64,000 bases of DNA. Origin: Candidatus Bathyarchaeia archaeon. Lineage in GTDB: Archaea > Thermoproteota > Bathyarchaeia > Bathyarchaeales > Bathycorpusculaceae. This document shows positions 1,648-60,770 of the stretch, one piece after another. Position numbers and translations under genes: made by a program. The DNA lies in NCBI GenBank assembly GCA_049512075.1, contig JBEKXL010000004.1, positions 32,001 through 96,000 of the forward strand, written 5' to 3'. The number at the start of each line of letters is the position of its first letter. Positions within the stretch are counted from its first letter, which is position 1. The notes under the pieces were generated by a model. It was not told the DNA's origin. It made no database searches and saw only the letters and a program-made list of their open reading frames with translations.

Positions 1648-1737
1648 TTTCAGGCCTTTATTTAAACACCTACGGCAGGTAGAGTCATTCGGCGCGCGCG
1701 CTAACTCTGCCTACAGTCCCTGACTCATACATTGAAA

Positions 1738-1868
1738 ATTACTTCTGACATTACAAACAAAAGGGCTGAGTCCACTCTGAACGGTAGTTCAGCCTGTTTT
1801 TCTTCATGGTTTGTAATAATACAGATTACATCTGACATTACAAGTGAAAAAAGGAAGCGACTTTGAAG
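1738..1868 (+). repeat. Dispersed ~130-bp intergenic repeat, copy 1 (inverted relative to 10124-10253)
   Basis: TCTGACATTACAAACAAAAGGGCTGAGTC.ACTCTGAA..TAG...TTTTTCTTCATGGTTTGTAA..AT...ATTACATCTGACA.TACAA.TGAAA...GCGAC.TTGAAG shared with the reverse complement of 10124-10253. Confidence 0.85.
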
Positions 1869-1980
1869 AGCTATGATTCAAAAGGTGTTTCAGCATACTT
1901 GAACTAGCAGCGCGCGCGAGTAAAATCGAGTGCCGCTTGCAAGAGGATTTTCTGCAAGCTAATCGGACAAGATATTGTTT

Positions 1981-2901
1981 CTAAGGGATATGAATCTCCG
2001 TTGCTGTGGCCATTATCAAATAGAAACCTGCCAAACCCTTCCATGTCCCCCATTTCTCGGCGATTTTGCGTGCTTCTTCACTTGAAATTTTCCTATTTCC
2101 GCAATAATAGTGTGAGATTACTCTTCTGAGCCCCAGGTCATCTGCGGGGAACGCTTCCAGCCTCTGCATTCCTCTGACCATAGTCAGCTCGGCTGTCCAA
2201 ATGCCGATGCCCCTTATCCTATCAAGCTCTGCGATGATATCCTTTGCATCTTCGTAATCTTTGAGCTTCTCGAGGCTTAGTTTCCCATCAATTATCATCT
2301 TAGAGACGTCTTTGATGTACTCTGCTTTTTTCTGACTCAACCCACAACTGCGGAGTGTGTGAACGCTTGCAGAAGCGAGCTCTCGCGGGGTCGGAAAAGC
2401 GTGATAGGCTTCTTTGTCCAAGCTGAGCACTTCACCGAAGGATTTGATCAGTCTCTCCTCCATCATATTTGCTATGCTTAGGGAGATCTGCTGTTCAACG
2501 ATCGAGTCGATTAATGCCTCAAAAACTGTTGGGGTTGTCGGGCTTTTCAGGCCTCTCAGTCTGTGAGTCAAATCTGCCATTACGCTGTCCTCTTTAACTT
2601 GCTCGTAGAAGGGTTTGAGATCAAAGTCGAGGTTGAAAAGGGTGCGGATGACTTCTTCAGCCTTCTCTCTGTCACTGTTGGATATTTTTTGATTAGATTC
2701 CAGTTTGATTGGAAGTCTCGGCTGTTCAACCGTTCCCGTAGTTGTAATGCACGCGAGTAGGAGCTTGTCGTTAACTCTTATTACTTGCCAGAACTTTCCG
2801 TTTTCGTATTTTCGAATATGTGAGTCTCCGTCTGAAAAAATCATGGCACTCAGTCTGAAGTCGAAGGGCGGAAGTGGGTTGACTGTTGCGGTTGTGAACA
2901 A
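1981..2901 (-). CDS. alkA: DNA-3-methyladenine glycosylase II (AlkA, HhH-GPD family)
   Basis: FEALIDSIVEQQIS, FPTP, GLSQKKAEYI, HhH IRGIGIWTAE, FPADDLGLRR. Confidence 0.9.
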   Translation of the reverse strand: MFTTATVNPLPPFDFRLSAMIFSDGDSHIRKYENGKFWQVIRVNDKLLLACITTTGTVEQPRLPIKLESNQKISNSDREKAEEVIRTLFNLDFDLKPFYEQVKEDSVMADLTHRLRGLKSPTTPTVFEALIDSIVEQQISLSIANMMEERLIKSFGEVLSLDKEAYHAFPTPRELASASVHTLRSCGLSQKKAEYIKDVSKMIIDGKLSLEKLKDYEDAKDIIAELDRIRGIGIWTAELTMVRGMQRLEAFPADDLGLRRVISHYYCGNRKISSEEARKIAEKWGTWKGLAGFYLIMATATEIHIP

Positions 2902-3138
2902 ATCTTTCCCCTTTTCCGTTCTTTGACTCTTTATACGGTGAGGCTAAAAACGCTTTTCATCGTTGTAACAAGAATGTCCGTGCGAAACTGTGCTTTGCCT
3001 ATTTGAAGGCTATGGTGGCGCTCTAAAGGGCAGCTGCAAAATGAGAATTGAAAGGGAGGCTTCCAAGGGCATGCGCTCTTACATAGAGGATTTTTAAATG
3101 CGAAGGCATGCATAGAGAACGGTGAAGGAGTTGTAACT

Positions 3139-3813
3139 GTGCGAATTGTGCTGAGAGTAGGTGGTTCGGTTGTGGCCTCGCCAGTCAATCCTGAACTGAT
3201 TGGCGAATATGCAGACATGATGAAGGCTATGAGAACGCAAGGTCATCAGGTTGTGGTCGTGGTTGGTGGCGGCGCCTTAGCAAGAGAATTCATAGGTGTT
3301 GCGAGAAGCTTGGGGCTCAGCCAGAAGGATCAAGATGGAATTGCAATATCAGTTTCGAGGATTTTCGCTCAGTTGCTCCTGAAGAGGATTGGGAATTCGG
3401 GTTGCGAGGATGTCTCGCTAAGCGTCGAAGAAGCAGTCCGCTGCACGAGCAAGGGTAAGGTTGCGGTCATGGGCGGTTTGAAGCCGGGAATGACGACGGA
3501 TGCCGTAGCGGCCATGGTAGCTGAAGCGTTGAAAGCAGATTTGCTCGTGAAAGCCACTGATCAGGAAGGCATTTTCGACAAAGACCCTAAAAAACATACA
3601 GACGCGGTGAAGCTTGACCACCTGAGATTTGAGGACTTGACTCGTGTTTGCGTGGAAGATAGGCACAAAGCCGGTATCCATCAAGTCATAGATCCTGAAG
3701 GCATCAAAATCCTGCAGCGCACGAGGGTAAAAGTTGTCGTCGTAAACGGGTTCAATCCCAAAAATGTGCTAACAGCGGTTGAGGGCAAACGTGTCGGAAC
3801 GTTAGTGGACTGA
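3139..3813 (+). CDS. pyrH: Archaeal UMP kinase
   Basis: GGSV, VVVGGGALAR, GGLKPGMTTDAVAA, DGIF.KDPKK-like motif. Confidence 0.9.
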   Translation: MRIVLRVGGSVVASPVNPELIGEYADMMKAMRTQGHQVVVVVGGGALAREFIGVARSLGLSQKDQDGIAISVSRIFAQLLLKRIGNSGCEDVSLSVEEAVRCTSKGKVAVMGGLKPGMTTDAVAAMVAEALKADLLVKATDQEGIFDKDPKKHTDAVKLDHLRFEDLTRVCVEDRHKAGIHQVIDPEGIKILQRTRVKVVVVNGFNPKNVLTAVEGKRVGTLVD

Positions 3814-3893
3814 ACTTGATTTTTTTCGGTTTTGATGTTCTGGAGCATAAATGACGCGGTCGAAATCAACGGGTCAACGCAACAACACTTCCG

Positions 3894-4389
3894 GTGGTAA
3901 ATGAGACTTACACTGGCCATGTTGCTGGTGTTCTCAAAGAAATAGGAGGCTTCGGCGTCGGCGCCGTCGTAATCTGTTCTGGCAACATCTTGCTTGAAAA
4001 AAGAAAGAACGAGCCGGGAAAGGGAAAATGGAGTATCTCCGGCGGCATTGTAGAGTTGGGTGAGGAGGCAGAGCAGACGGCGGTAAGGGAAGTTAGGGAA
4101 GAAACAAACCTCACAGTCGAGAAGCCAGAACTCATAGACGTCGTGGACAACGTGGAACTGGACGAAAATGGAAAGGTCAAGTACCCATTTTGTTATAATC
4201 GACTATCTTGTGCGACTCAAAGGTGGAAGGCTCAAGGCTTCGAGTGATGCTGCGGAACTAAGATGGGTCAGACTGGACAATGTGGAAAACTATGCTCTGA
4301 CTAGGACTTTTCGGGAATTTTTTACTAAAAACTACGAAAGACTAAAGAATTTTGATTCGTGCAAGCGCCAATCAAACCACAAGAACTAG
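3894..4389 (+). pseudogene. NUDIX hydrolase split by a +1 frameshift (possible sequencing error)
   Basis: Nudix box GGIVELGEEAEQTAVREVREETNL in 3894-4247; C-terminus HFVIIDYLV...ASSDAAELRWV in another frame (4168-4389); removing one C from TACCCAT (~4183) gives KVKYHFVIIDY. Confidence 0.8.
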
Positions 4390-4459
4390 GCCGGCTGCAT
4401 TCATGCCTCCGGATGGCACGCGAGTTCCAGAGTGTTGGCAGGTGTTTCCCTTTGTTCGT

Positions 4460-5926
4460 TTATTGATTGGTGGCGGATGTGAAGAAGAGTCTTGTTTCTC
4501 CCATTGTTTTCACGTCCAGAGCCTTGACTCTTGCGACTATTGGAAAGTCCCTCACAGCTCTCCCGAGTGCTAGGCAGTAGTGAGGTGGAAGGTCTCGGGC
4601 GATGGACCTTACTGTCTCAGCGTCCACGCGGGCGGCTCGGGAAACTACGTCCAGATCGTGTTCGTTTGTGAAGTTGAAGAGGAAAATGTTGTCGGCTTGG
4701 CGGTAGATGTTCTCGCGTATGGTGTCGGGCTGGTTGGTTATGAACGTGGTGAAGATTCCGAAGTGACGCATGCGCGTTACGATGTCGTCCCAGTAGGTTT
4801 CACGAAGGTAGAGGTGTGCTTCTTCGGCGAAGAGGAATACAGCCTTGAGTTTCGAGCTGCTCAAAGATTCAACGAGTTTTCCTAGAACGTATTCAACCAC
4901 TATCTGTCGATCAATAGATGAGGTATTTCGGAGGTTCATTATTATGGCGCCGCCGTGGTCTCTGGTCTTAAGCAGGTACTCTTCGAGTGATGTGGCTTCG
5001 GCGATATTGTCCGTGAAAATTCCTGAGTTGACTAGAGCATGGTAGCGTGAGAACAGTGCGTCTCGGACGTGTTGGTTGCAGTTCCAGCTTCGGATTGTTT
5101 CGCCCAACTCATGGAGTGTAAGGTTGTCCCTCTCTTTGAGCGCTATCCATATCCCTCTGAACTCGCGGGCGGACGTTCCTGGCAAGTGAAGTGCGTGTAT
5201 GAGAATCCCGAGCATCACGTGGAGGTTCAACTCTTTGAGGGCCAGTTTGAAGTTTTGGGAAGGCGTCAGGACGTGAATCTTGTCGTAGTTTGCGTTTCTC
5301 TTTCCGTCGCCTGTTAATCCGAGGCTCAGATATTCGCCGTTGAGGTCGAAGACCACTATCGTTGCTTTGTATCCGACCAGGTTTACCATTAGAAGCTTCG
5401 ACAAGTGGGACTTGCCTGTTTCCTTCTTTCCAGTTATTATGTTCAATCTTCCGTCAAGCGACGTGGCGTCAATCGTTAGCAGCGATGAGTCTTTTGTTCC
5501 ACCTATCACTATTGGGAGTTTGCCGTCAATCTTGGCGAGTTTCAGCAGAGTTGGAAGTGGAAGCTTTTTTATCGTCGACTGGGAACGTGAGGGAAGCCAT
5601 GAGCTGCTCGGGTTTAAACCGTCATTCTCGGCTGTTGCACGGATTTTGCAGATGAGTAAACTGGCGTCCTGAATATACGAGATATGTGGGGCAATCTCCA
5701 AGGGGTCAACGTCTTCACCTTTGATTAATTCTTCCCCGTCTGGGAGGCTTCGAAGCAGTTCTTCAAGCACGCCGGGAATGCTGGCAAACTGCACGTCGAT
5801 GACCTGCACGATGAGTGCTCTTCCAGCATCGGCATCCTCGACGAGCAGATAGTCGCCCTTCTCAACTGTCTCACCGGGGAAGCTTAAAATCTGAAGGACG
5901 TTGCCTTCTTTCCTGTAGAGTTTCAT
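4460..5926 (-). CDS. herA: HerA/FtsK-superfamily ATPase (DUF87), HerA helicase-like
   Basis: N-terminal HAS-barrel-like region, Walker A GKKETGKS, VFDLNGEY, Walker B FAEEAH, Arg finger RMRHFG, ITNQP. Confidence 0.85.
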   Translation of the reverse strand: MKLYRKEGNVLQILSFPGETVEKGDYLLVEDADAGRALIVQVIDVQFASIPGVLEELLRSLPDGEELIKGEDVDPLEIAPHISYIQDASLLICKIRATAENDGLNPSSSWLPSRSQSTIKKLPLPTLLKLAKIDGKLPIVIGGTKDSSLLTIDATSLDGRLNIITGKKETGKSHLSKLLMVNLVGYKATIVVFDLNGEYLSLGLTGDGKRNANYDKIHVLTPSQNFKLALKELNLHVMLGILIHALHLPGTSAREFRGIWIALKERDNLTLHELGETIRSWNCNQHVRDALFSRYHALVNSGIFTDNIAEATSLEEYLLKTRDHGGAIIMNLRNTSSIDRQIVVEYVLGKLVESLSSSKLKAVFLFAEEAHLYLRETYWDDIVTRMRHFGIFTTFITNQPDTIRENIYRQADNIFLFNFTNEHDLDVVSRAARVDAETVRSIARDLPPHYCLALGRAVRDFPIVARVKALDVKTMGETRLFFTSATNQ

Positions 5927-7008
5927 GAGTAGCCTTCTCCCTTGCCGAACAATCCAAACAGAAGCCTATGCATGTCTGGCCTGTTGATGATTTGAAGCCC
6001 AAATCTCCTCGTGACGAAATGCTGCATCGCTAGCACTTCATTGGCCGTGAACGTGCACAAAATGTGAGCCAGACGCAGAGTTTCGGGATAGCTTTCCGCA
6101 AACAGGTCGTTTCCTAGGAGTTTTTCAACGGCCTCGATCCGCGGCTCAGGCGGAACTTCTTTATCTATGTCCAGTCTGAAAGCAAGGTTCCCCTTGGTCA
6201 ACCTGGCCACATAAACGTCGCCGAGCAGGACCATTGGGGGCTTGAGCCTCAAGCCTTCTGTCTCAAGCAGAAAGGGAGGCTTATGCTCCGGCAGCAGGTC
6301 TGTTATGCGGTGTCCGTTCACCCTCAGGTTCGTCATTTTCGAAAAGGCTAGAACGACGTTGTCTCCCTTTCTTGCCGTGTCAAGTATTTCTCTCATGCGA
6401 TGCGTTGGAGTTTCAGCGGTTCCCGCTGTTAGTGAACCGTCGAAGAGTATTAGTCCGTTGTTCATGGTTTTCGCGGCCATCGTTTGAAGCCAACGTTCGA
6501 GGAGGCTCGCTATCCGTGTGGGCATCTGGAGAATGCTTGGTGCGCCTTGGTGGCTGTGCTCGTGTAGGGAATTGAAGTACGTTCTTTCCAGCGTTTCGTA
6601 GACTTGTTTCTTGTTTTCCTCGGTGACGTGGAATATGAATGGCCCGAATCGCATGTACCTGTAGCGTCTGTTTTGCTTCCAAACGTTTGCACCCCTGACG
6701 GCTATCACGATGCCCGTGCTTGTTTCGCCAATCTTTATGGTCGACGTGTCCACGGCCGCGACGATTTTTTCCTTGCGGGATGGATTTAGAGGCAATGGTT
6801 CAAGCTTAAGCCTTAGTGTTTCGTTGTGCATGTCTGCGCTGTTGAATTGTTGAACGCTTTGTTGATTTAGTTGAAATGCATGGTCGTGTGCGTGTTTGAG
6901 TGAGTGCAGGCTTAATTCGATGAACTGATGGGGTAATGTTGTGTCCATGGTGGATTGTGGAAAGTTATATTTTGGTGTTGTTGCAATAGGGTATTGTTCA
7001 ATCACCAA
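5923..7008 (-). CDS. nurA: NurA-family 5'-3' nuclease
   Basis: AAVDTS, LFDGSL, AFSK, YPETLRLAH motifs; 4-bp ATGA overlap with herA. Confidence 0.8.
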   Translation of the reverse strand: MVIEQYPIATTPKYNFPQSTMDTTLPHQFIELSLHSLKHAHDHAFQLNQQSVQQFNSADMHNETLRLKLEPLPLNPSRKEKIVAAVDTSTIKIGETSTGIVIAVRGANVWKQNRRYRYMRFGPFIFHVTEENKKQVYETLERTYFNSLHEHSHQGAPSILQMPTRIASLLERWLQTMAAKTMNNGLILFDGSLTAGTAETPTHRMREILDTARKGDNVVLAFSKMTNLRVNGHRITDLLPEHKPPFLLETEGLRLKPPMVLLGDVYVARLTKGNLAFRLDIDKEVPPEPRIEAVEKLLGNDLFAESYPETLRLAHILCTFTANEVLAMQHFVTRRFGLQIINRPDMHRLLFGLFGKGEGYS

Positions 7009-7098
7009 GATTCACCAATAGCCAATTGTTTAGGGAAGGTATATTTAAGTGTTGCGCATGAACAAGATGCGCAATACAATAAACAACAAGGTGAGAGG

Positions 7099-7500
7099 TT
7101 GGTAGACAAAGAAACAAAGCCGCCGATACGAGTAAAAATGAAGATAGGAGAAGTCGAATTCGAAATCGAATGCCAAGAAGACCAGCTGCAGTCGACGGTG
7201 GACAAAATCCTTTCAACAGTAACCGACAAACTAAAAGAAACATCATTGATGACGGAAAGGGCCGCACAGCCGCGTAGGGCAGAAACCTGCAAGGGCATAA
7301 TACAGAAGCTATGGGAGGAAGGCTGGTTCTCCACTGCAAAAGGCCTCAGCGAAGTCCATAGCGAACTGGCAAGACGTGGGTTCCACTACGACCGCACTGC
7401 CGTCGCCCATGCTCTCATAGACCTAGTCAAAGACGGAATACTGACAAGAGAAGGAAAACCACGCAGGTATCAATACGCCCAGAAAAGGCCGCCTCCATAA
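7099..7500 (+). CDS. Hypothetical protein, N-terminal beta-hairpin/helix + C-terminal winged helix
   Basis: Likely TTG start at 7099 after GGTGAGAGG; IRVKMKIGEVEFEIE; C-terminal EVHSELARRG..YDRTAVAHALIDLVKDGILTREG wHTH pattern. Confidence 0.7.
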   Translation: MVDKETKPPIRVKMKIGEVEFEIECQEDQLQSTVDKILSTVTDKLKETSLMTERAAQPRRAETCKGIIQKLWEEGWFSTAKGLSEVHSELARRGFHYDRTAVAHALIDLVKDGILTREGKPRRYQYAQKRPPP

Positions 7501-7595
7501 CCTGCTTCATCCATCAAGTTTTCCCAACATGTCAGGCGAGGCTAGTTTCTGTCGCCTGTTCAGCATCCTGAAAGCAGATTGGAAACACGAAAGGC

Positions 7596-8168
7596 TTAGT
7601 AGTCCATTTTCACCCTGATTCTTGGAATAGTATCCTTCTGCATCTGCATAAGACCGAAGGTTGTGATCCTGTATTTTTCGTCGGGAGTCTTCGCGGCTGT
7701 CTGGTTCTTGACCAGTTCTCCCAGCCGGGTGCTTGCAATCTTTGCGTCTTTGCCGAGCTTGCCCTGCAGTTCCTCTTTCGAAAGCGCGTCTGTTTCAGCA
7801 TTGCCCAGCTGATGGGCAAGGTAACCTGCCAGAAGTAGCAGGCTTAAGGTCTCGTTGTCTGTCAGCTTATTCCTCGGAACAAGCAGGCATGGCCCTTCCT
7901 TCGCAAAAGTGATGATGCCTTCAGAGTCTTTGGCCAGCTTCTGCAGGTCAACGTTCAGCATCAGCTTCTGTGCAACCTCAAAAGACGGCAAGAACTCGTT
8001 GAAAAACCTGTTTAAACTCAACCAAACCGATTCAACGTTTCCAGAAAACTTCTTCTCAACACCCCTATACCTGACCTCCACGGTCAACTCGTCCTTATCT
8101 TCGCCTCTGCGACTCTGAGGAGGCTCGCTTGCGGAGGCGGCGCAGTCTTTACCCAACTTCCATTCCAC
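7596..8168 (-). CDS. Hypothetical protein with C-terminal winged helix
   Basis: LTVEVRYRGVEKKFSG; C-terminal LSKEELQGKLG...STRLGELVK...YRITTFG wHTH pattern. Confidence 0.7.
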   Translation of the reverse strand: MEWKLGKDCAASASEPPQSRRGEDKDELTVEVRYRGVEKKFSGNVESVWLSLNRFFNEFLPSFEVAQKLMLNVDLQKLAKDSEGIITFAKEGPCLLVPRNKLTDNETLSLLLLAGYLAHQLGNAETDALSKEELQGKLGKDAKIASTRLGELVKNQTAAKTPDEKYRITTFGLMQMQKDTIPRIRVKMDY

Positions 8169-8274
8169 CCTGCCAGCTCTGATTGTTGGCGATGGTTAAA
8201 AAGCGTTGTCAAACGCCGTGACGAGGCGATTCAAATCAAGAAAGCATGAACCACGATGCGTTTGCCGAGGCTTT

Positions 8275-8748
8275 TCATTGGCCTATTTTGCTTTTGAGCT
8301 TGTTTAGAACGTCGTCTTCTACCCATCTCTCGCCCTGCATGGTGAGCTTGAACTCGGGTCTGTTCGGGTCCGGCTTGAACACTTGGCCTCTCTTGGTCAT
8401 CTCGTTTAAGCGTGCGGGGACCATGCATTTTATTCCGCTTGATTCTAGAAGCTTCGTTATCTGCGCTGCTGTTCTCTTCTTCCCCTCTGAGGCGTACAGC
8501 GTCAAACCTATTGCTTCATAGTGAGTCAGGTTTTCGCGGGCTATGATGACGGGACCTTCGGTCGTGGACTCAACGATGCCTTTGAGTTGAACGCCTGAGG
8601 GCATCAAACGGTTCTGGACGAAACCTCCAACCTTTTCCACGAAACCTTCGGGGAAAGCCTCAAGAATCTTCAGTATTTCTTGCGGGTTTTCAGCCTCGAC
8701 AACGATTTCGCCGAAGGGCGTCTTAACTCGTACTTCAACCTTGCTCAT
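8275..8748 (-). CDS. Hypothetical protein with C-terminal winged helix (similar to 7596-8168)
   Basis: VEVRVKTPFGEIVVE; GIVESTTEGPVII..ENLTHYEAIGLTL matches GIITFAKEGPCLL..NKLTDNETLSLLL of the neighbour; ARLNEMTKRG...FKLTMQG. Confidence 0.75.
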   Translation of the reverse strand: MSKVEVRVKTPFGEIVVEAENPQEILKILEAFPEGFVEKVGGFVQNRLMPSGVQLKGIVESTTEGPVIIARENLTHYEAIGLTLYASEGKKRTAAQITKLLESSGIKCMVPARLNEMTKRGQVFKPDPNRPEFKLTMQGERWVEDDVLNKLKSKIGQ

Positions 8749-9138
8749 TTGCGCCTCTCCTCAAGCCGAAAGCTTCCTTCTCAGCCAGAAACTCAACAAA
8801 TGGCGACATCTCCCACATTAACCCCTCTTTTTCTTTTCCTATTCATTCCAATGATGGTAATAACGTTTTTGTCCTAACAGGCGTTTTGCGCGTGCCCTTT
8901 TTTTGTTTCGTTCAATGCTCAGGCAAGTATGAGCTTTTTTCTAAGTTCCTGAACTTGATGTCCCTGGACTAAGAGTGCTCCGTGTTGCAAGTGTGACTTC
9001 TGTAACCAGCGCACACCTTCAACGCTATCCATCAATTCAGCAACAAGCACAGAGAAACAGGAGTGGAAACGTCCCAAGCGTCCTAAGCGTCCAGCGTAGT
9101 CCCCTCAGAGCCCGTGACCCGCGCGGGCGAAATGAATG

Positions 9139-9282
9139 CTAGTAAGATTGGCGCGCACTGACTAACTGCCGGAAGCATCGTTCGCATAGGTCCTGTCCAG
9201 ATATTTGAATGATCTCAGAGTCTGAAAGCATCTTTCCGCACCTGTCACAAGCTATTTCCCTCGGAATTGGCGTGCTTCCCAT
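9139..9282 (-). CDS. 47-aa zinc-finger microprotein (CxxC-x17-CxxC)
   Basis: Manual translation MGSTPIPREIACDRCGKMLSDSEIIQISGQDLCERCFRQLVSARQSY; GAGGA just upstream; below ORF-track cutoff. Confidence 0.6.
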   Translation of the reverse strand: MGSTPIPREIACDRCGKMLSDSEIIQISGQDLCERCFRQLVSARQSY

Positions 9283-9411
9283 GTTCCTCACAATTCGGAT
9301 AGGGCCTTTCTAGCGCTTAAACAACATTCCGAGGCCGTCAATATATCAAAGTGCGTTCGTCAGCTGGCGCACGCTCGCGCGCTATCTTAGGAAGACGAAA
9401 CGATGGGAGTG

Positions 9412-9903: not shown

Positions 9904-9964
9904 ATCAATCCCGCATATAGCATGGGGCTAACCGCTTTTAGCATTTACGTATATCGGTGTTTTT

Positions 9965-10120
9965 TCACTGTATTCCGAGAGTTTCTTCAGCGCGCGCGAC
10001 GATTCCGCGTTGTACATCAAAGGCGACGACAGAAAAACCAGCATCAGCAAACAGGGTAGCGGCGCGCTCTACTGCAACTCTCAGAATTTTCTCGACTAAG
10101 ATCTCAAGCCAGCCATACAT
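9965..10120 (-). pseudogene. Fragment resembling the N-terminus of a nucleotide-sugar (UDP-Glc/GDP-Man/WecC family) dehydrogenase
   Basis: KILRVAV-ERA-ATLFADAGFSVVAFDVQRGIV-ARA; resembles Rossmann beta1-alphaA-beta2 with the GxGxxG loop missing. Confidence 0.4.
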
Positions 10121-10123
10121 GCC

Positions 10124-10253
10124 CTTCAAGGTCGCCCCCCTTTCATTTGTACTGTCAGATGTAATGTTGCATTGTTACAAACCATGAAGAAAAACACACT
10201 GGGCTATCCTTCAGAGTCGACTCAGCCCTTTTGTTTGTAATGTCAGATGTAAT
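10124..10253 (-). repeat. Dispersed ~130-bp intergenic repeat, copy 2
   Basis: Reverse complement aligns with 1738-1868, including both internal ATTACATCTGACA(T/G)TACAA units. Confidence 0.85.
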
Positions 10254-10350
10254 GTGTATTGTAATAGACCAGGGATTGCAGGTAGTTGCCCGTGGCACAA
10301 AGACAGAATGGCTAGGTCTGGCAGGCCTACTACGCCGTTGCCGTCTGCGT

Positions 10351-11070
10351 TCAGGTTTCATTTGCTTTCGCCTGCGCGCTAGCGTGTTGCCAAATTCGGG
10401 GAATTGAAATGAACTTGTTCGATCGCGCTTGGGCTTGGACAGACACACATGATCTGGTATGTAAAAGTTTCATGAGAACGCAACCATGCTTGGACGGTGA
10501 GCAGAAATTGACACAAACAATTCGATTTAGCAACGCCCTAGCGCGCGCTGATGTTTGTTGTTCCTTTGTCACTCCATTTAGTACGAAGGCAAACATGAAC
10601 AAGGCAAGTGAAGGAAAAATCAAGTAGTAGCCTTGTTGATATTCTCCAAGACCTCCAAGTACTATTTGTCCTGCATAAATCATCAAACCCAGAACTCCGA
10701 GACACAGCAAAACTGGAACAAATGATAGAATTCTTCTATTGAAGAAGACAAAGCCTACGCCAAAGACCAGCGTCAAAACCTGAATTATGAACATCGATAC
10801 TAATGCCCAAGACATCGGTTGGAATTCTGCCAAACCAGTAGTTCCCCAGTAATTAGAGAACCAATACTGCCTTGGTCCCTGTTGCAAGTTACCGTAGAAG
10901 TCACGTCTATATGACCAATAATAATTCGACATTCCGCCCAATACTGACATGTAGAGAAAAAAGGGAGAAATGACAGAAAACAAAAACACTAAGCACCCAA
11001 TTACCACCAGAGCCTTCTTAAGAATATCCAAGACCGATAACTTTGTAGACACACTCTTGAGTTTAAACAA
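10351..11070 (-). CDS. Hypothetical membrane protein (~4 TM helices); C-terminal ~65 aa probably junk read-through
   Basis: Four hydrophobic segments; sequence loses protein-like character after TKEQQT, next to the GC motif at 10539. Confidence 0.6.
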   Translation of the reverse strand: MFKLKSVSTKLSVLDILKKALVVIGCLVFLFSVISPFFLYMSVLGGMSNYYWSYRRDFYGNLQQGPRQYWFSNYWGTTGLAEFQPMSWALVSMFIIQVLTLVFGVGFVFFNRRILSFVPVLLCLGVLGLMIYAGQIVLGGLGEYQQGYYLIFPSLALFMFAFVLNGVTKEQQTSARARALLNRIVCVNFCSPSKHGCVLMKLLHTRSCVSVQAQARSNKFISIPRIWQHASAQAKANET

Positions 11071-11192
11071 GCACTGTCACATAGAATATGAGCACAAAGC
11101 CTTAAAAGTTCAGCGCCCGCTAATTCAGGGACAAGCCAGCGCGCGACCTGACTTTGTGTCATCTGTTGATATTGTGAGAGTATTTTACTAAT

Positions 11193-11673
11193 TCAATTGC
11201 GTAGCCGATTTGACCTTTCTCTTTCAACGATAACGCGGGTTGGAGCAATCAGCACAGATTTCTTTATTCGATCCGCTATCTTTGTGACCCCTCTTACAGG
11301 GCTGATATTCTCCATTACTCGTTCTAGCTCGATAGTTGCATGGCTCACAGCATCCCTTGGATTTCTCATTCGCCGCACCTAAAACCTCTTCGAATTTCCT
11401 CGCGCGCTCAGACACTTGGAACTCTCTATCGCCTCTGTTCTTTTCTGTTTTATCTTGCTCAGCTTTCTTTTGGATTTTTCTATCGCTTTTGTCCTTCTCT
11501 TTTCTACCCTTCTCAGCTTTATCTTGGAGTTTTTTATCGCTCCTAGCCTTCTCTTTTTTATCTTTCTCAGCTTTGTCTTGAAGTTTCTTGTCACCCTTGT
11601 CCTTTTCTTTTCTAACGTTCTCAGCTCTACCTCTTTCAGCCTTTTCAGCGCGTTCAATCTCTTTTCTGCTCAT
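11193..11673 (-). CDS. Charged 18-aa-repeat protein, probably frameshifted near 11378
   Basis: ORF 11224-11673 is K/E/D/R-rich; a more protein-like tail RRMRNPRDAVSHATIELERVMENI continues in ORF 11193-11378. Confidence 0.5.
11416..11610 (-). repeat. ~3.6 x 54-bp imperfect coding tandem repeat
   Basis: KEKDKGDKKLQDKAEKDK / KEKARSDKKLQDKAEKGR / KEKDKSDRKIQKKAEQDK / TEKNRGDREFQ. Confidence 0.8.
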
Positions 11674-13524: not shown

Positions 13525-13880
13525 CCCTACTATTCCTTGCTATAACTAGTATTTATAATAAGCAGGGACAATGCGCGCGCGTCTGGTGACACTCTATGCA
13601 CATAACATCTAGCGTGCGCTCTTTCTTTTGCTGTTCGCGGAAATAAGATCGCATGTCTCCAGATGACGACTTAAGCCGCTTAAACGCGTAAACCGATACC
13701 CGTATAAGGGTGTATGCACATTATATCATATAAGGATAAGCTAAAAGGATGGATGTACAATGATAACCGAAACAAGAGCAATACTTTGGCATATGGCAAT
13801 TTGCTTATTGGAAGAACCTCTGACACGTGCGAATCGTGACTAACAAATTGAAGCAATACAAAAACAGGTTGGTAATTGAA

Positions 13881-14836: not shown

Positions 14837-14903
14837 GCAGCGTCGTTGGTTGGACAAAGCTTTACCCCGGAAGAGTTCCTGAAAAAACTAGCTGAACTGG
14901 AGG

Positions 14904-30448: not shown

Positions 30449-30785
30449 TGGCTGCCCCCTAATTGAAAATTCTTGCTGGACATTTACGTCTTCTGATGTG
30501 CCAACTCAGCGCACACACTTGACAGATGGCTTTCTGTGCGAGAAAGCCACAATGGGTTACCGTTTATTAGCCTCTAAGAACCACCTTTCTTTTCAATTCA
30601 TGGACACGGACTTACCCGTAAATCCTCTGTTTGCAGCGCACGCGCATTTGCGTTTTCAGTCAGCCACTCGGTATCGCTGAGCAGCAAACATCGAAACTTC
30701 AGGTCCAATATTTGTCCATCCGAGGTTGAAATAGTGCTTTAACGAAAGATAACTCTTTTCGCGCGCGCCTAAATCCGCGTGCCAA

Positions 30786-40204: not shown

Positions 40205-40720
40205 ATGGTGTCCAAAGACGCAACGTATCGTAAGCTCTACGCCACGTGGATCAAAAAGTGGACGATGGAGTGTGCTGTGAAAGGCCTCTCAAAATCAAAG
40301 GCGAAAGAAGAGATAGACTTTCAGCTATCAAAAGAGACTCTGCGACTTGGCGCTAGTGCGCGCGCTAAATATACGATAAAGGAGACTCTGCGACTTCAAG
40401 GAGTTACAATTTACGGTTTAGAGGAAACTTACTATTGTGAGCGTTTTTTGTGCCATGAAAGGACAAACATTATGGCCTGCATGGACCGAGAACCACCTAA
40501 TGTTGGACGTATGGTTTGTCCTAAGCATTTGGAAGAGCTGAAAAGAGAGTACGTTGCCCAGAATAAACCAACGTTAGAGGAACGTGAGAATTTGCAGTCA
40601 ATGAAGAAATTAGAAGAGTCCGAAGCCAGATGGTGGTTTGAAGAAGAGGTCACTAAGAAGCTCTCATCGAAGCCTACTAATCACGGAAAGGGGCGGCGGA
40701 AAACACGCAGAAATTCCTAA
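40205..40720 (+). CDS. Hypothetical Cys/His-containing protein with internal duplication
   Basis: CERFLC...CPKH; KETLRL occurs twice, 16 aa apart. Confidence 0.55.
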   Translation: MVSKDATYRKLYATWIKKWTMECAVKGLSKSKAKEEIDFQLSKETLRLGASARAKYTIKETLRLQGVTIYGLEETYYCERFLCHERTNIMACMDREPPNVGRMVCPKHLEELKREYVAQNKPTLEERENLQSMKKLEESEARWWFEEEVTKKLSSKPTNHGKGRRKTRRNS

Positions 40721-41594: not shown

Positions 41595-41985
41595 TGCGCG
41601 CTCTATCTATCTGTGATGTGACAAAGTTTCAGAGATTCTGCGAAAGCATCCTGACCTAGTAAACCTTGAAGCATATAAGAAAACCATGCATGAAGCGATA
41701 GATGAATTTTAGGAGATAATTGTTATGGTTGAACATAGCGCGCACTCTGTTTATCATCTAGTTAAAAGCCCTGCGAGTCATTTTATATATGGAAAGGATT
41801 AAATATTGTTTCTATATTCACAACTTATTTAAGCCAAATCAGAACAAGCAAAACCAATAACGAGAAAGATGTGCAATTATGCACGTAGTGAATAGAGAAA
41901 ACCTCTATGCATACATAAATAAGGTACTGGACACTCAACATCAATGGTAAGGTTGGGTATTTTGTTTGTTGAAGGGTGATGAAAA

Positions 41986-46022: not shown

Positions 46023-46246
46023 GAACTTCCCAAGAAACTAACAATCAAACATACTTAAGCATTTTACGCCAGAGCCTCAGACTTCCGCCCTTGCTAATCA
46101 AAGCGATAGCACCCATTGTGACAGTCTGAAACAAGCAGCAGCCTACTGAAGACTCGCCCACGCACACCAGTTCACATGCACAGGTACAATGATATACTCC
46201 AACGCCAATAGGACGAGGTAGCTAGCCAAGCTTCTTAGCGCGCGCA

Positions 46247-48909: not shown

Positions 48910-49112
48910 CAGTCTTCAACAATCTCCTGAAGCCCTACTTCGCGCGCGAGGGGCATCACTTGGCTGTTGCTAATAGTGTGGAAGAAGAAGAGTCCCGTAG
49001 AAGCTGGATTTGAGTCGTTTGTGGTTACAGAATGTTGTCCTGTATCTTTCAGAAAAGGAAAACGGCGCACAAACCCTGCGTGTGTCAATACCCGAAGACC
49101 AAGACGTGCGTG

Positions 49113-55216: not shown

Positions 55217-55222
55217 GTTTGT

Positions 55223-58750: not shown

Positions 58751-58843
58751 ATCTCCGAATATTCCCATCTCGGCATCCAGTGTTCAACACTATTAGTAAT
58801 GGCTACACACACATGACAGTCATGCGTTAGCCTTTGGTGCACG

Positions 58844-59635
58844 CTATTTGGTTCTCGGTATGTAGATTCCGTTGGGGTCTATCGCTCTCAGAAGCGCCAG
58901 TTCCTCACAGGTGGGCAGTTCGGTTGTCGGCACGTCTCTCGGTACTACCAGGTCAAACTCTGTGTTTTCTAGCACTTGTTGAACTGAAACGCGGGGATGA
59001 ACCGTGGTCAGTCTGATGTGTTTTGTTCTGGGTTCAAAGTCCATTTGGCAAAGGTTGGTTACTACAAGTGTTGGACCGCCGCCGAGCAACCCCGCTTTTT
59101 GCCTGGCTTCAGGTCCGTCCAAGAACCCGGGGCTTGTCAGGTAGTCGAGCTTTTTGACCATTTTCCTTTTCTCATGAGTCATTATAACCACCGTGCGTCG
59201 GGCTGATGACATTATGTCGTTTCCTCCTCCGCTTCCAGGCAGTCTCACGGTTGGTTTTTCGAAGCTTCCAATGTAGGTCGTGTTCAGGTTTCCGTACATA
59301 TCGATTTGCGCCGCTCCGACAAAGCCTACATCCACGTGTCCACCTTGAAGCATGAGCCCTAGGGTTTCGATTAGACCGATGGCCGCGGAAGCGCGGTGGC
59401 CCAGCCTAGAGTCAGCTATTGACAGGGCGACGTCTCTGGCGTTTGAATCTATGAAACCTGCTTCAAAAACGATTTTTGCTCCCGGCGCATGCGTTCTCTT
59501 GGCCAGCAAGGCTGCAATCATGGGCAAGCCTGTGCCGACGAAGACAACCTCGCAGTTCTTTATCGCTCTTGACCCGCACACGGCCATGAGCTCAAGTGTG
59601 GAAAATTCGTCGATGTCTGCAAGTTTGTTAGTCAT
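58844..59635 (-). CDS. Family I CoA-transferase beta subunit (glutaconate CoA-transferase-like)
   Basis: VFVGTGLP, FEAG, AQID.YGNLN, GSGGGND. Confidence 0.88.
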   Translation of the reverse strand: MTNKLADIDEFSTLELMAVCGSRAIKNCEVVFVGTGLPMIAALLAKRTHAPGAKIVFEAGFIDSNARDVALSIADSRLGHRASAAIGLIETLGLMLQGGHVDVGFVGAAQIDMYGNLNTTYIGSFEKPTVRLPGSGGGNDIMSSARRTVVIMTHEKRKMVKKLDYLTSPGFLDGPEARQKAGLLGGGPTLVVTNLCQMDFEPRTKHIRLTTVHPRVSVQQVLENTEFDLVVPRDVPTTELPTCEELALLRAIDPNGIYIPRTK

Positions 59636-59650
59636 TTTCGTTCTTTCCCC

Positions 59651-60646
59651 TCAGTAGGCAAACGGTTTCTTGGCTCTGAACTTCATGAGTCGTTCGATGC
59701 CTATTTTGGTAAGGAACTCTATATGGTCCTTCGGGCCCGTTATGTATTCGTTGCAGTATTTTTGCCACCCTTCCTCGGTTTTGCACTGGTCATAGTACAT
59801 GCGTACGTGTTCAATGTCGTAATCGTAATAGTTGTAAACCATCATCGGAAACGAACCCCATGGACACTCAACGACATGGGTCACATAAATGTTGGGTATC
59901 ACTGTTTGGTCTGGCTGAGACCTAATGAACTCCGTGTCAACAATTTCTTCAGCCAAAACTATTACTTTCTTGCCGGCCCTGGCGCCTTCCACATCCTCGC
60001 CTTTGATGCCGTCAATCTGAACGTTTCCCTCTCTGTCCACCCGTGAGGCATGCACGATGCTGAAGTCTGGGCGGACAGATGGAACGAGTACTACCCTTTC
60101 TCCGCTGAATGGGCAGTCCATGACCTCTGCCTTCTTAGTTCTGAACCTCTTTTTTGCAAGAACATCTGTGCCGAGCATGCTTTTCAAGGGCATGAATGGC
60201 ACACCGAGCGCGCCACCCATGAATCGCAAGGCCATAGCCAGGTTTGAATAGTCCTCGATCTCTATTGCCCCTTCACGGATTCTGCGTTGAATATTGGGTA
60301 CCAACCCTATGCCTTCAATTGCAAAAAACGCCAGTTCAAGGCGCGACACAACCTTTGCCCCGCACAGGATATCCATGTCCATTTCCGAACCGCATGTGTA
60401 AATGGTCAAACCACGCTTGTTCTGCCTTACAAGCTCATGTGCGAAAGCCATGGGGGGACGTTGAAAACCAAAGCCTCCCCAGAAAAGATGTGCCCCATCT
60501 GGAACGAGCTTCACAGCTTCCTTAAGCGTTATTCTCTTGTCTTCTACGGGCGCCTCAACCAAACTCTTCACCAGCAATCTAGCAATGCATAGATGCGCAT
60601 CCCCCACATAGATTTTTCGACTTAAACGCTGCAAAACTCCGTGCAT
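59651..60646 (-). CDS. Family I CoA-transferase alpha subunit (glutaconate CoA-transferase-like)
   Basis: GALGVPFMP..SMLGTD, CPFSGE, D..GN; true start probably ~30 codons in. Confidence 0.88.
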   Translation of the reverse strand: MHGVLQRLSRKIYVGDAHLCIARLLVKSLVEAPVEDKRITLKEAVKLVPDGAHLFWGGFGFQRPPMAFAHELVRQNKRGLTIYTCGSEMDMDILCGAKVVSRLELAFFAIEGIGLVPNIQRRIREGAIEIEDYSNLAMALRFMGGALGVPFMPLKSMLGTDVLAKKRFRTKKAEVMDCPFSGERVVLVPSVRPDFSIVHASRVDREGNVQIDGIKGEDVEGARAGKKVIVLAEEIVDTEFIRSQPDQTVIPNIYVTHVVECPWGSFPMMVYNYYDYDIEHVRMYYDQCKTEEGWQKYCNEYITGPKDHIEFLTKIGIERLMKFRAKKPFAY

Positions 60647-60770
60647 GTGAAGTTCTTTGGAAGAGAGAGTTCTCCATGGCGTTCATGAAGCATATTCAGA
60701 GATACGTTTCAATGTGTTCTCTGCGCCCTTCTCAGCAGCCTTTTTGGTTATCCGAGTAAGCGCGCTATTT

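What the first reader, a model, noticed from the sequence alone, without database searches (positions are those of the whole stretch)
1692..60767. Recurrent palindromic (GC)n motif (~TAGCGCGCGCTA) marking non-coding and junction sites: possible undescribed recombination or end-joining scar
Seen: perfect alternating-GC runs of >=8 bp at ~1692, 1910, 9990, 10541, 13573, 30760, 40358, 46238 and 48941. Shorter or variant copies, often with TA/AG flanks, occur at ~9151, 9376, 10062, 10373, 11138, 11400, 11860, 13610, 14208, 15187, 15416, 30635, 41592, 41736, 42927, 57467 and 60759. By eye, none of the >=8-bp runs lies in a conserved housekeeping gene, although such genes cover most of the window. 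The motif separates units in the 9950-15450 patch, brackets both copies of the 130-bp repeat and the AT-rich cargo pair, and sits at apparent truncation, deletion and duplication points (separate findings). Inference: it is either a sequence left or added at DNA junctions (self-complementary microhomology, untemplated addition) or a target site for cassette-like gene gain and loss. A chromatin-protein binding or Z-DNA-prone site is the alternative.
Basis: partly seen in the sequence, partly recalled or inferred. Interest (0 to 1): 0.85.

Follow-up and report, generated by a model that had tools for sequence, protein, structure and literature searches.

The report
Junction-marking GC palindrome in Bathyarchaeia
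An uncultured archaeon carries hundreds of copies of a tiny self-complementary GCGCGCGC motif, almost all between genes and often exactly where DNA was lost, gained or reshuffled, which suggests an undescribed way of breaking and rejoining DNA.

Summary
The window lies in a 2.73-Mb Bathyarchaeia MAG. There, GCGCGCGC is the commonest 8-mer. It occurs 562 times in non-coding DNA against 6.4 expected from dinucleotide content. Alternating-GC runs peak at 8-10 nt (575 runs) and almost stop at 11. Of these runs, 501 lie in the 22% of the genome that is non-coding. The consensus is TTA-(GC)4-5-TAA.

The sites are not conserved. Against a 94%-identical congener, 26 of 75 aligned sites are unchanged, versus 52% of control 9-mers. 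Homology ends within 5 bp of a site at 76 of 550 block ends (9 expected). The motif caps repeats and recombinase gene fragments truncated at variable points. It also flanks filler DNA and gene-sized segments, and appears or vanishes as a 10-12-bp unit.

Independent metagenome assemblies hold the same joints, so it is not an artefact. The motif is patchy across 251 family members.

Best reading (about 40%): it is a self-complementary joint sequence that is made at, and re-used by, DNA break-and-join events. No enzyme was identified. C5-methylase, reverse transcriptase, Y1/TnpB/IS110 transposases, Ku and PrimPol do not track it. No description was found in print.

The parts
1692..1701 (.). (GC)5 run. 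It is the left boundary of a 208-bp fragment of repeat family X, in the spacer between genes 643-1647 and 1981-2901.
   Evidence: Homology with G002 ends inside this run. In run X5's strain, homology stops at 1692.
1702..1909 (.). Internal fragment of repeat family X (positions 223-444 of the 587-bp reference stretch), bracketed by two motif copies.
   Evidence: Other copies of the family are cut at other positions, each with a GC run at the cut.
1910..1918 (.). (GC)4G run, the right boundary of the family-X fragment.
   Evidence: It is identical in G002. The X5 contig resumes at 1912.
9990..9998 (.). (GC)4G run at the start of the variable patch 9950-15450.
   Evidence: It is changed in G002 and bridged by an X5 contig.
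10062..10067 (.). GCGCGC hexamer, one boundary of an inverted family-X copy (10068-10373).
   Evidence: (C4:42350-42127).
10374..10379 (.). GCGCGC hexamer, the other boundary of the inverted family-X copy.
10541..10548 (.). TA-(GC)4-T run inside the variable patch.
   Evidence: It is unaligned in G002.
11139..11145 (.). GCGCGCG run. It is the right edge of a strain-level replacement.
   Evidence: an X8 contig joins 10397 to 11139 with 299 other letters between.
11401..11407 (.). CGCGCGC run.
   Evidence: It lies in ORF call 11224-11673, which has no Pfam hit.
13573..13581 (.). (GC)4G run just past the end of ORF 13183-13524.
   Evidence: It is bridged by a 29-kb X5 contig that has 6 differences over 10978-20000.
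30760..30768 (.). C(GC)4 run between genes 29339-30448 and 30786-31202 (JAB-domain protein).
   Evidence: It is identical in G002.
40358..40365 (.). (GC)4 run followed by TAAATA. It lies in a weak ORF call, 40205-40720.
   Evidence: weak HTH hit at residues 106-146 only. It is unaligned in G002.
41596..41601 (.). GCGCGC hexamer in the AT-rich 40.2-42.9 kb stretch.
   Evidence: GC 0.43 there.
41738..41743 (.). GCGCGC hexamer in the same AT-rich stretch.
46238..46245 (.). TA-(GC)4-A run upstream of the cysteinyl-tRNA synthetase gene (44592-46022, minus strand). The spacer here is about 320 bp longer than in locus L006.
48941..48948 (.). (CG)4 run about 30 bp past gene 48127-48909. It sits at the edge of a roughly 0.9-kb spacer that holds a DUF2284 gene. 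That spacer is 119 bp in L006 and 46 bp in L005.
60760..60765 (.). TAA-GCGCGC-TA hexamer between genes 59651-60646 and 60771-61835.

Best explanation
The motif is a lineage-specific, short, self-complementary element with core (GC)4-5 and consensus TTA-GCGCGCGC-TAA. It marks DNA joints.

Proposed mechanism (inferred): when double-stranded ends are joined in these archaea, the joint tends to carry one copy of the GC palindrome. A (GC)n tail or half-site can pair with any other such tail, so unrelated ends become joinable. Existing copies are then preferred places for the next break or exchange. This applies to deletion, capture of filler DNA, and gain or loss of gene-sized segments.

The expected result is what is seen: mosaic spacers in which fragments of repeats, gene remnants and whole genes are separated by the motif. 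Two-base slippage then shifts copies between 8 and 10 nt. Point mutation decays them into the excess of 5-7-nt runs. Copies are rare in genes because a joint or an insertion of 8 or 10 bases there is usually lethal to the gene.

Shown: abundance, intergenic restriction, rapid turnover, coincidence with homology breaks and truncation points, presence/absence as a unit, and patchy distribution across lineages.

Inferred: that the copy is made at the time of joining, and that self-annealing is the reason for the sequence. The enzyme or enzymes are unknown.
For: 1. Abundance and shape.
- GCGCGCGC is the commonest 8-mer in the genome (646).
- It occurs 562 times in non-coding DNA against 6.4 expected.
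- Run lengths peak at 8-10 nt and are cut off at 11. The same shape is seen in G002.
- In five other genera, 12-mer windows number 0-15 against 369-587 8-mer windows.

2. Location. 501 of the 575 runs of 8-10 nt lie in the 22% of the genome that is non-coding. All spacer types carry them, including convergent ones that hold no promoter (0.89 per kb). Divergent spacers carry the fewest (0.68 per kb).

3. No conservation. 26 of 75 aligned sites are identical in G002, against 52% (sd 3.2) of random aligned non-coding 9-mers and 45.7% (676 of 1478) of GC-rich controls.

4. Breakpoints. 76 of 550 G000/G002 block ends lie within 5 bp of a site, against a mean of 9.2 for random non-coding positions. 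Ends of self-BLAST repeat matches pile up on the motif: 248 of 3991 left ends and 236 of 3991 right ends lie within 5 bp.

5. Derived truncations. Copies of repeat family X are cut at variable positions (179, 184, 193, 223, 225, 229, 235; 368-437). Each cut has a GC run that the full-length copy lacks at that position. In addition, 6 of 8 truncated tyrosine-recombinase fragments have a run at the truncation point.

6. Indel classes, from 170 collinear G000/G002 events. Expected numbers are my arithmetic from the 0.058 chance.
- Only the shorter allele has the run at the joint: 43 events (about 17 expected).
- The longer allele has runs at both ends: 15 events (under 1 expected).
- A run in the shorter allele plus a run at one end of the longer allele: 27 events (about 2 expected).
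- Example: at C2:212105, G000 has motif-40 bp-motif where G002 has 959 bp holding a 311-aa HTH gene and no boundary motif.

7. Unit indels. 4 of the 7 internal alignment gaps of 10-12 bp are the motif itself, in otherwise collinear sequence.

8. Strain level. In other studies' assemblies, homology stops at 1692 and resumes at 1912 (X5), and a replacement ends at 11139 (X8).

9. Structure. The intramolecular hairpin of the 14-mer is weak (-1.7 kcal/mol, no better than shuffles). Pairing between two copies is therefore the more plausible use of the self-complementarity. This last step is inference.
Against: - No event could be polarised with an outgroup. The 84%-identical congeners do not align across the spacers. 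'Made at the joint' therefore rests on paralogue truncations and on class counts.
- The one in-gene case is weak. At C1:94034 there is an in-frame 306-bp difference, but it involves only a 7-nt run and lies in a tandem-domain gene.
- 66 of 170 events have no run at any joint, and class D (19 events) is at chance.
- 15 events look like plain insertion into, or deletion between, existing copies. A recombinase or simple repeat-mediated deletion explains those as well.
- No polymerase, ligase or nuclease that tracks the motif was found. Ku is present in G000 but also in a motif-poor genome (G196), and it was not found in a motif-rich one (G107).
- A mechanism that yields exactly 8-10 nt with an A...T flank is not known from any described end-joining system.
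- The gene caller is home-made, and only 1.53 of about 2.33 Mb of G002 was compared.
Confidence: 0.4

Rival explanations
1. The motif is the core or target site of an unidentified site-specific recombinase, transposase or phage integrase, as dRS3 is in Neisseria. Segments bounded by two copies are inserted, excised and exchanged. New copies arise only with inserted segments.
For: - Inserts are flanked by a duplicated motif where the other genome has a single copy: C26:22707, C33:10344 and C2:217600. Classes A and B together hold 15 events against under 1 expected.
- Five full-length 262-270-bp copies of family X sit at five loci, each bounded by the motif at both ends.
- A palindromic site whose information decays outward (TTA|GCGC) fits a dimeric protein.
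- Variation inside genera is patchy (g50: 104 vs 3-21; g64: 108 vs 0-12), which fits a gained or lost mobile enzyme.
- G000 has 14-15 tyrosine-recombinase genes and fragments, and G021 has 29.
Against: - In 43 events only the shorter allele has the motif, and the longer allele lacks it at both ends.
- The motif caps truncations at positions where the parent sequence has no similar site.
- It appears as a bare 10-12-bp unit.
- Only 5 of 364 inter-motif segments have a full-length partner.
- A conserved length of 10-14 bp is short for known tyrosine-recombinase sites (recalled knowledge).
- Y1_Tnp, TnpB and IS110 were not found in the motif-rich G004 and G021.
- Recombinase copy number overlaps between rich and poor genomes.
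Confidence: 0.25
2. The motif is a GC-dinucleotide microsatellite that grows by hairpin- or Z-DNA-assisted slippage up to a tolerated ceiling. Being structure-prone, it is fragile and causes nearby breaks, deletions and rearrangements. It is the cause of junctions, not their product.
For: - Two-base length differences between G000 and G002 occur at about 11 of the 17 gapped sites.
- 2-bp steps would be frameshifts in genes, which fits the intergenic restriction.
- Alternating CG is the classic Z-DNA former, and Z-DNA-forming repeats provoke breaks and large deletions in other systems (PMC6957503 and PMC13079400, abstracts in the listing).
- Class C events (27) show a shared motif with different sequence on one side.
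Against: - Other dinucleotide runs, including self-complementary (AT)n, show no bump.
- The flank preference (A at -1 in 70% of 8-mers against 33% of 4-mers; TA 5.3-fold over background) is not expected from slippage.
- Bare 10-12-bp appearances at sites with no GC seed (C33:12334, C30:22580, C4:16405) cannot come from slippage.
- Fragments bounded by the motif on both sides (window 1692/1910), and the motif-40 bp-motif that replaces 959 bp, are hard to obtain by fragility alone.
- The patchiness inside genera would need a repeated change of mutational regime.
Confidence: 0.15
3. The motif is a functional cis-element bound by an abundant dimeric DNA-binding or chromatin protein, for example a domain boundary, a terminator aid or an insulator. 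It is kept between genes by selection.
For: - The site is palindromic, has about 575 copies and is almost only between genes.
- It lies somewhat nearer gene ends than gene starts in tandem spacers (median 134 vs 218 bp).
- The genome has many chromatin and transcription paralogues: 7 Alba and 8 TBP.
Against: - Sites are no better conserved than control sequence, and if anything less (35% vs 46-52% identical).
- Only 75 of 575 sites lie fully inside blocks aligned with G002, although 27.9% of non-coding bases are aligned.
- The motif is near absent from many genera of the same family with the same housekeeping genes.
- Its distances to genes are broad, with no fixed spacing.
- Copies cluster in junk-rich patches with gene fragments.
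Confidence: 0.08
4. The motif is a HIP1-like highly iterated palindrome, created and maintained by a methylation-directed short-patch repair system.
For: It is a hyper-abundant GC-rich octamer palindrome with lineage-specific replacement patterns, as described for HIP1 and alternate HIPs (PMC4390886, abstract and passages).
Against: - No C5-methyltransferase scored above cut-off in any of the five g1 genomes or in G021.
- N4/N6 methylases are found in 38 of 41 genomes, so they carry no signal.
- There is no excess of CpG transitions (ts/tv 1.67 at CpG vs 2.08 elsewhere; rate about 1.3-fold).
- HIP1 is common inside genes, whereas this motif is 25-30-fold depleted there.
- Repair-driven conversion does not explain unit indels or breakpoints.
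- GCGCGC does not occur in the text of the HIP survey (0 occurrences).
Confidence: 0.03
5. The motif is an assembly, adapter or chimera artefact.
For: None was found. The idea was raised because the motif sits at joints.
Against: - Contigs from four other runs (four studies) reproduce the motif-bearing joints. X2 and X3 bridge 1692 with 0 differences. X5 spans 10978-20000 with 6 differences.
- 20 runs from 17 studies hold the stretch.
- The same pattern occurs in all five genomes of the genus and in many other MAGs, and is absent from their relatives.
Confidence: 0.01

Closest known systems
Neisseria dRS3 repeats and neisserial intergenic mosaic elements (NIMEs)
   Same: Both are a short repeat with inverted-repeat symmetry, present in hundreds of copies (dRS3 about 650-725 per 2.2 Mb). 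Both are intergenic and bound 30-160-bp segments in arrays of 200-2700 bp. Both are tied to gene insertion or deletion and to rearrangement (PMC3898611, passages read). Here there are about 575 copies per 2.7 Mb, fillers of 0-300 bp, and arrays such as window 9950-15450.
   Different: dRS3 is 20 bp long (ATTCCC-N8-GGGAAT) and has a known user, the integrase of the Nf1 prophage. Here the conserved part is 8-14 bp of pure alternating GC with a length ceiling. No matching integrase was found. The segments between copies are mostly unique rather than families (5 of 364). The host is an archaeon.
HIP1 (GCGATCGC) and alternate highly iterated palindromes of cyanobacteria
   Same: Both are GC-rich octamer palindromes, the top 8-mer of their genome, tens- to hundreds-fold over expectation, and lineage-specific (PMC4390886; abstract of PMC5861425 in the listing).
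   Different: HIP1 is frequent in genes and is linked to orphan C5/GATC methylases. This motif is 25-30-fold depleted in genes, has no C5 methylase partner, turns over fast and marks indel boundaries.
Mobile palindromic GC clusters of yeast and other mitochondrial genomes
   Same: Both are GC-rich palindromes scattered in non-coding DNA, with rapid turnover and presence/absence between close strains. Both are suspected to be mobile, with an unknown amplification mechanism and links to length mutations (PMC4478555: abstract, introduction and section 17 read; PMC7218506: passages).
   Different: GC clusters are 30-60 nt structured elements (for example GC42) with a putative AG target duplication, and they live in organelles. 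Here the unit is 8-10 nt, too short for a stable hairpin, in a cellular chromosome, and it sits at truncation points.
REP/REPIN elements with RAYT transposases (recalled; no paper read here)
   Same: Both are extragenic palindromic repeats present in hundreds of copies.
   Different: REPs are 20-40-nt imperfect palindromes served by a Y1 (HUH) transposase gene. Y1_Tnp genes occur in G000 but were not found in the motif-rich G004 and G021.
Interstitial telomeric repeats inserted at repaired chromosome breaks in vertebrates (recalled; no call)
   Same: It is a works-like analogy only: a constant short sequence left at a repaired double-strand break.
   Different: Those repeats are templated by telomerase RNA. 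No reverse transcriptase was found in any of 41 genomes here.
Z-DNA-forming (CG)n tracts
   Same: The sequence is alternating CG, and it is associated with deletions and breaks (abstracts in the listing). A tree-of-life Z-DNA survey reports only about 1.7-fold enrichment in Archaea. It has no occurrence of the word Bathyarchae (passages).
   Different: General Z-DNA enrichment is mild and tracks GC content. Here a 47.5%-GC genome has an 88-fold excess of one octamer, with a fixed length window and flank preference.

Membership tests
Highly iterated palindromes (HIP1 type) | Octamer palindrome far above Markov expectation; the top 8-mer of the genome | tested here: met
Highly iterated palindromes (HIP1 type) | A cognate orphan cytosine-5 methyltransferase is present when the palindrome is frequent | tested here: not met
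   no PF00145 match over cut-off in G000-G004 or G021. G002 has only a 19.4-bit match against a 22-bit cut-off.
Highly iterated palindromes (HIP1 type) | Frequent within genes as well as between them | tested here: not met
   66 coding against 501 non-coding runs of 8-10 nt.
NIME/dRS3-like intergenic mosaic arrays | Short inverted-repeat element in hundreds of copies, bounding short segments in intergenic arrays | tested here: met
NIME/dRS3-like intergenic mosaic arrays | The segments between the short repeats belong to repeat families (RS elements) | tested here: inconclusive
   194 of 581 sites have a similar flank elsewhere, but only 5 of 364 inter-motif segments have a full-length partner.
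NIME/dRS3-like intergenic mosaic arrays | The short repeat is the integration site of a known phage or transposase | tested here: not met
   IS110-type, Y1 and TnpB families do not track the motif. Recombinase copy number overlaps between rich and poor genomes.
REP/REPIN-RAYT | 20-40-nt imperfect palindrome plus a RAYT (Y1 transposase) gene in every carrier genome | tested here: not met
   The core is 8-10 nt. Y1_Tnp was not found in G004 or G021.
Integron attC / gene cassettes | 55-140-bp imperfect palindromic sites, one per promoterless ORF, in one array next to an integron integrase | tested here: not met
   The site is 8-14 bp. Copies are dispersed over all contigs. Fillers are 0-300 bp and mostly non-coding. 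The 62 genes bracketed by copies were not shown to exceed chance.
CRISPR array | Repeats of 23-50 bp at regular spacing with uniform spacers | tested here: not met
   The repeat is 8-10 bp. Spacing ranges from 0 to thousands of bp with no period.
MITE | Conserved internal sequence with terminal inverted repeats and target-site duplication, in many full-length copies | tested here: not met
   The logo is flat beyond +/-3 nt. There is one 5-copy family only.
Ordinary dinucleotide microsatellite | Monotonic length distribution; similar behaviour of other dinucleotides | tested here: not met
   bump at 8-10 nt, cut at 11 nt. (AT), (AC) and (AG) runs decay geometrically.
Z-DNA-forming tract | Adopts left-handed DNA in vivo | not testable with these tools
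   Only the sequence criterion (alternating CG of 8 nt or more) is met.

The most novel reading that the evidence does not exclude
These Bathyarchaeia have a dedicated break-joining route that gives each DNA end a self-complementary (GC)4-5 linker. The linker may be templated by the hundreds of existing copies or made by an unknown polymerase. Any two ends can then anneal and be ligated. Every repaired or recombined joint is thereby tagged, the tags are re-used as the next break or exchange points, and the tag spreads like a selfish element.
Probability: 0.2. Interest if true: 0.92.

Novelty: new variant of a known kind. Interest (0 to 1): 0.72.

Why it matters
Bathyarchaeia are among the most abundant uncultured archaea in sediments and peat, and how their genomes change is largely unknown.
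- This motif is a readable mark of where DNA was joined. It can be used at once to map gene gain, loss and decay in these MAGs.
- Its sharp length window, flank preference, fast turnover and patchy spread point to a specific molecular agent that nobody has described.
- If the motif is made at joints, that would be a new kind of end joining or a new minimal selfish element.
- If it is a recombinase target, it would be an archaeal counterpart of the Neisseria mosaic-element system.
- Either way, phylogenetic profiling can now be used to look for the enzyme, because motif-rich and motif-poor genomes exist within single genera.

Tried and rejected
Candidate drivers that did not track the motif:
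- Methylation-driven origin. No C5 methylase was found in the genus. N4/N6 methylases are everywhere, in 38 of 41 genomes. There is no CpG-transition excess.
- RNA-templated addition. RVT_1 was found in 0 of 41 genomes.
- Transposase drivers. Y1_Tnp, TnpB and IS110 were present in G000 but not found in G004 or G021. The IS6 copies are old, at 65-73% identity.
- Ku and PrimPol.
- An unannotated 10-copy protein family.
- Tyrosine-recombinase copy number.

Searches and tests that gave nothing useful:
- Single genes bracketed by motif copies: 62 were found. By a rough estimate of my own, not computed, that is about what independent spacer occupancy would give, so I make no cassette claim.
- Viral scan for TTAGCGCGCGCTAA: 35 stretches. 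Among the 11 stretches whose GC I computed, those with 5-8 GCGCGCGC copies are 65-68% GC. Two that I looked at show long overlapping ORFs. This is composition, not relatives.
- Rfam on the window: 0 families.
- Outgroup polarisation of unit indels failed. G001, G003 and G004 do not align across the sites.
- No RNA holder was listed for the window, so nothing can be said on expression.
- Hairpin fold of the 14- and 16-mers is no better than shuffles.
- CRISPR, integron, MITE and microsatellite readings failed their defining features (see Membership tests).

Not in print: searches of 'GCGCGCGC'+'archaea' and 'Bathyarchaeia'+'palindromic'+'intergenic'+'repeat' found nothing on this motif. Supplementary files were not consulted.

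Correction to my notes: an earlier count said '8 gaps of 10-12 bp'. The output lists 7, and the report uses 4 of 7.

Full report
**What is there.** Twelve of the 17 shorter copies are runs of 6-7 nt, and the other five are degenerate copies. The window is contig C4:32001-96000 of a 2.73-Mb, 86-contig genome with 47.5% G+C. It is an archaeon (GatD/GatE, ELP3, form-III RuBisCO, HerA-like ATPase). Its closest public relatives are Bathyarchaeia MAGs.

**Genome-wide shape.**
- GCGCGCGC is the most frequent of all 8-mers (646). The next three are its one-base shifts.
- Alternating-GC run lengths fall from 4 nt (8834) to 7 nt (195). They then rise to 284, 186 and 105 at 8, 9 and 10 nt, and collapse to 3, 2 and 1 at 11-13 nt.
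- (AT), (AC), (GT), (AG) and (CT) runs decay smoothly.
- The core is GCGCGCGC rather than CGCGCGCG (250 against 34 exact 8-mers). It is preceded by A in 67-69% of cases and followed by T in 67-74%. The logo is flat beyond about 3 nt, so the motif is not the tip of a longer repeat.
- Pooled half-sites read TTA|GCGC. TA precedes the core in 188 of 680 half-sites (27.6%, against 5.2% background).
- The A preference rises with run length, from 0.33 at 4 nt to 0.70 at 8-10 nt. This is as expected if the shorter runs include decayed copies.

**Where it lies.** I used a home-made codon-usage gene caller (2606 calls, 78% coding).
- Of the runs of 8-10 nt, 66 are coding, 501 are non-coding and 8 straddle a gene edge. 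That is a 22-30-fold higher density outside genes. Runs of 4 nt show a ratio of 0.94.
- In non-coding DNA the octamer is seen 562 times, against 6.4, 25 and 111 expected under Markov orders 1, 2 and 3.
- All spacer types carry it: tandem 0.91-0.95 per kb, convergent 0.89 per kb and divergent 0.68 per kb. Distances to genes are broad.
- Sites are clustered: 115 neighbour gaps under 300 bp, against about 26 for a uniform spread.

**It is not conserved.** A congener, G002, is 94-96% identical in DNA. I fetched 1.53 Mb of it and aligned 1.02 Mb in 283 blocks.
- G002 shows the same length bump.
- Only 75 of the 575 G000 sites lie fully inside blocks, and 31 more straddle a block end. For comparison, 27.9% of non-coding bases are aligned.
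- Of the 75 sites inside blocks, 26 (35%) are unchanged. The figure is 52% (sd 3.2) for random aligned non-coding 9-mers, and 45.7% for GC-rich non-alternating 9-mers.
- The changes are point substitutions, 2-bp length steps and whole-unit differences.
- There is no CpG-transition signature.

**It marks joints.**
- *Block ends.* Of 550 block ends not at contig ends, 76 lie within 5 bp of a site. Random non-coding positions give a mean of 9.2 and a maximum of 17 in 200 draws. Frequent control 8-mers unrelated to the motif give 0-4. Two controls that overlap the motif's flank give 11 and 14.
- *Repeats within the genome.* Ends of repeat matches pile up on the motif.
- *Repeat family X.* Its copies are cut at many different internal positions. 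Each cut carries a GC run that the full-length copy does not have at that position. The window's 1692/1910 pair brackets one such fragment, and 10062/10374 brackets another.
- *Gene fragments.* Six of eight truncated tyrosine-recombinase fragments, mostly 5'-truncated, begin or end at a run, four of them within about 20 bp.
- *Indel and replacement events.* Among 170 collinear events between G000 and G002, 104 have a run of 6 nt or more at a joint. The counts per class follow, with expected numbers from my arithmetic on the 0.058 chance measured, assuming independence:

| Pattern | Events | Expected |
|---|---|---|
| Only the shorter allele has the run | 43 | about 17 |
| Run in the shorter allele and at one end of the longer allele | 27 | about 2 |
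| Longer allele has runs at both ends | 15 | under 1 |
| Longer allele only, at one end | 19 | about 17 |
| No run at any joint | 66 | - |

- *Examples.*
  - A 110-bp insert lies between duplicated copies where G002 has one copy (C26:22707).
  - The bare motif sits where G002 has 146 bp (C3:154940).
  - Different fillers lie between the same flanks, each with a motif at one joint (C20:23498).
  - Motif-40 bp-motif sits where G002 has 959 bp encoding a 311-aa HTH protein (C2:212105).
- *Unit indels.* Four of the seven internal alignment gaps of 10-12 bp are the motif itself in otherwise collinear sequence.

**Not an artefact.** Twenty runs from 17 studies hold the first 10 kb of the window. Contigs of four runs from four studies other than the possible source were laid on 1-20000.
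- X2 and X3 bridge the 1692 run with no difference.
- An X5 contig of 29 kb spans 10978-20000 with 6 differences.
- In the X5 strain, homology stops at 1692 and resumes at 1912.
- An X8 contig replaces 10397-11139, ending at the run at 11139.

**Distribution.**
- AGCGCGCGCT counts are 115, 87, 29, 69 and 98 in the five genomes of the genus. Its reversed control gives 2-6.
- Across 251 genomes of the family the motif is patchy. It is high in about ten genera and near zero in others.
- It is sharply different inside some genera: g50 104 against 3-21, g64 108 and 44 against 0-12, g11 53 against 0-16.
- The length ceiling holds in five other rich genomes.

**Mechanism.** The data need two things. 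One is a source of new copies, because copies decay fast yet are 88-fold over-represented. The other is a link to joints.

I favour a break-and-join process (about 40%) in which the joint carries the self-complementary GC unit and existing units are re-used. The reasons are as follows:
- The shorter allele alone carries the motif far more often than chance.
- Derived truncations of paralogues are capped by it.
- A filler can carry it at both of its joints.
- It appears as a bare unit.
- The intramolecular hairpin is weak, so pairing between two ends is the more plausible use of the palindrome. This last point is inference.

The rivals are these:
- A recombinase or transposase target, as dRS3 is in Neisseria (about 25%), explains the 15 events with runs at both ends of the longer allele and the 5-copy cassette. 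It does not explain the 43 events in which only the shorter allele has the motif.
- A structure-prone GC microsatellite that causes breaks (about 15%) explains the 2-bp steps and the shared-motif breakpoints. It does not explain the flanks, the seedless appearances, or why only GC runs behave this way.
- A conserved binding site (about 8%) conflicts with the turnover.
- A HIP-like methylation route (about 3%) lacks its methylase.

No enzyme family that I tested tracks the motif.

**Limits.**
- No event could be polarised by an outgroup.
- The gene caller is crude.
- Only two-thirds of G002 was compared.
- BLAST block ends may be drawn to a hypervariable site, although only 1 of 171 events had near-equal gap sizes.
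- Class expectations assume all joints lie in average non-coding DNA.

**Known relatives and novelty.**
- In architecture, the nearest known thing is the Neisseria dRS3/NIME system.
- In statistics, it is HIP1.
- In behaviour, it is the mobile GC clusters of mitochondria.
- The motif fails defining features of each of these, and of REP/RAYT, integrons, CRISPR, MITEs and plain microsatellites.
- Two full-text searches found no description of it.

I file it as a new variant of the known kind 'short interspersed palindromic repeats tied to genome rearrangement'. There is a real chance that the mechanism is new.

Noticed in passing
window 1702-1909 and 10068-10373; about 40 copies genome-wide (e.g. 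G000 C13:8741-9010): Repeat family X is 130-290 bp long. It has two direct copies of an ACATCTGACATTACAA-like word around a hairpin-like centre, and often ends in a poly-G tract. It is insertion-polymorphic between G000 and G002 without the motif (C2:37279, 310 bp; C13:29233, 99 bp). There is no Rfam match in the window.
   Followed up: partly
G000 C16:6054-6590 (outside the window; locus L196): A Ku homologue (PF02735, 140.7 bits) is present, which is unusual for an archaeon. It was also found in two g64 genomes but not in two g50 genomes. Its neighbours were fetched but not examined.
   Followed up: partly
G000 C4:113369-117158 (outside the window; locus L195): An 871-aa ORF with a Prim-Pol domain lies about 2 kb from a full-length tyrosine recombinase. 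This looks like an integrated plasmid or virus-like element.
   Followed up: no
G000 genome-wide: Paralogue families are unusually large for a 2.7-Mb archaeon: 8 TBP, 7 Alba, 10 AsnC/MarR-type HTH, 14 tyrosine recombinase genes or fragments, and a 10-member family with no Pfam or NCBIfam hit.
   Followed up: partly
window 49142-49663 (minus strand): A DUF2284 metal-binding protein gene is present here but absent from the orthologous spacer of loci L005 and L006. It contains a G10-A7 homopolymer stretch.
   Followed up: no
G000 C1:336200-338300: This is a junk-rich patch with recombinase C-terminal fragments and tRNA 3'-half-like pieces (GGGTTCAAATCCC...) between motif copies. It looks like the remains of integrated elements.
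   Followed up: no
G000 C1:93838-97017: A 1059-aa secreted tandem-domain protein has one 102-aa repeat unit more than its G002 orthologue (in-frame 306-bp difference).
   Followed up: partly
window 36617-38413 (minus strand): A 598-aa ORF with strong coding score (82) has no Pfam hit in two scans.
   Followed up: no
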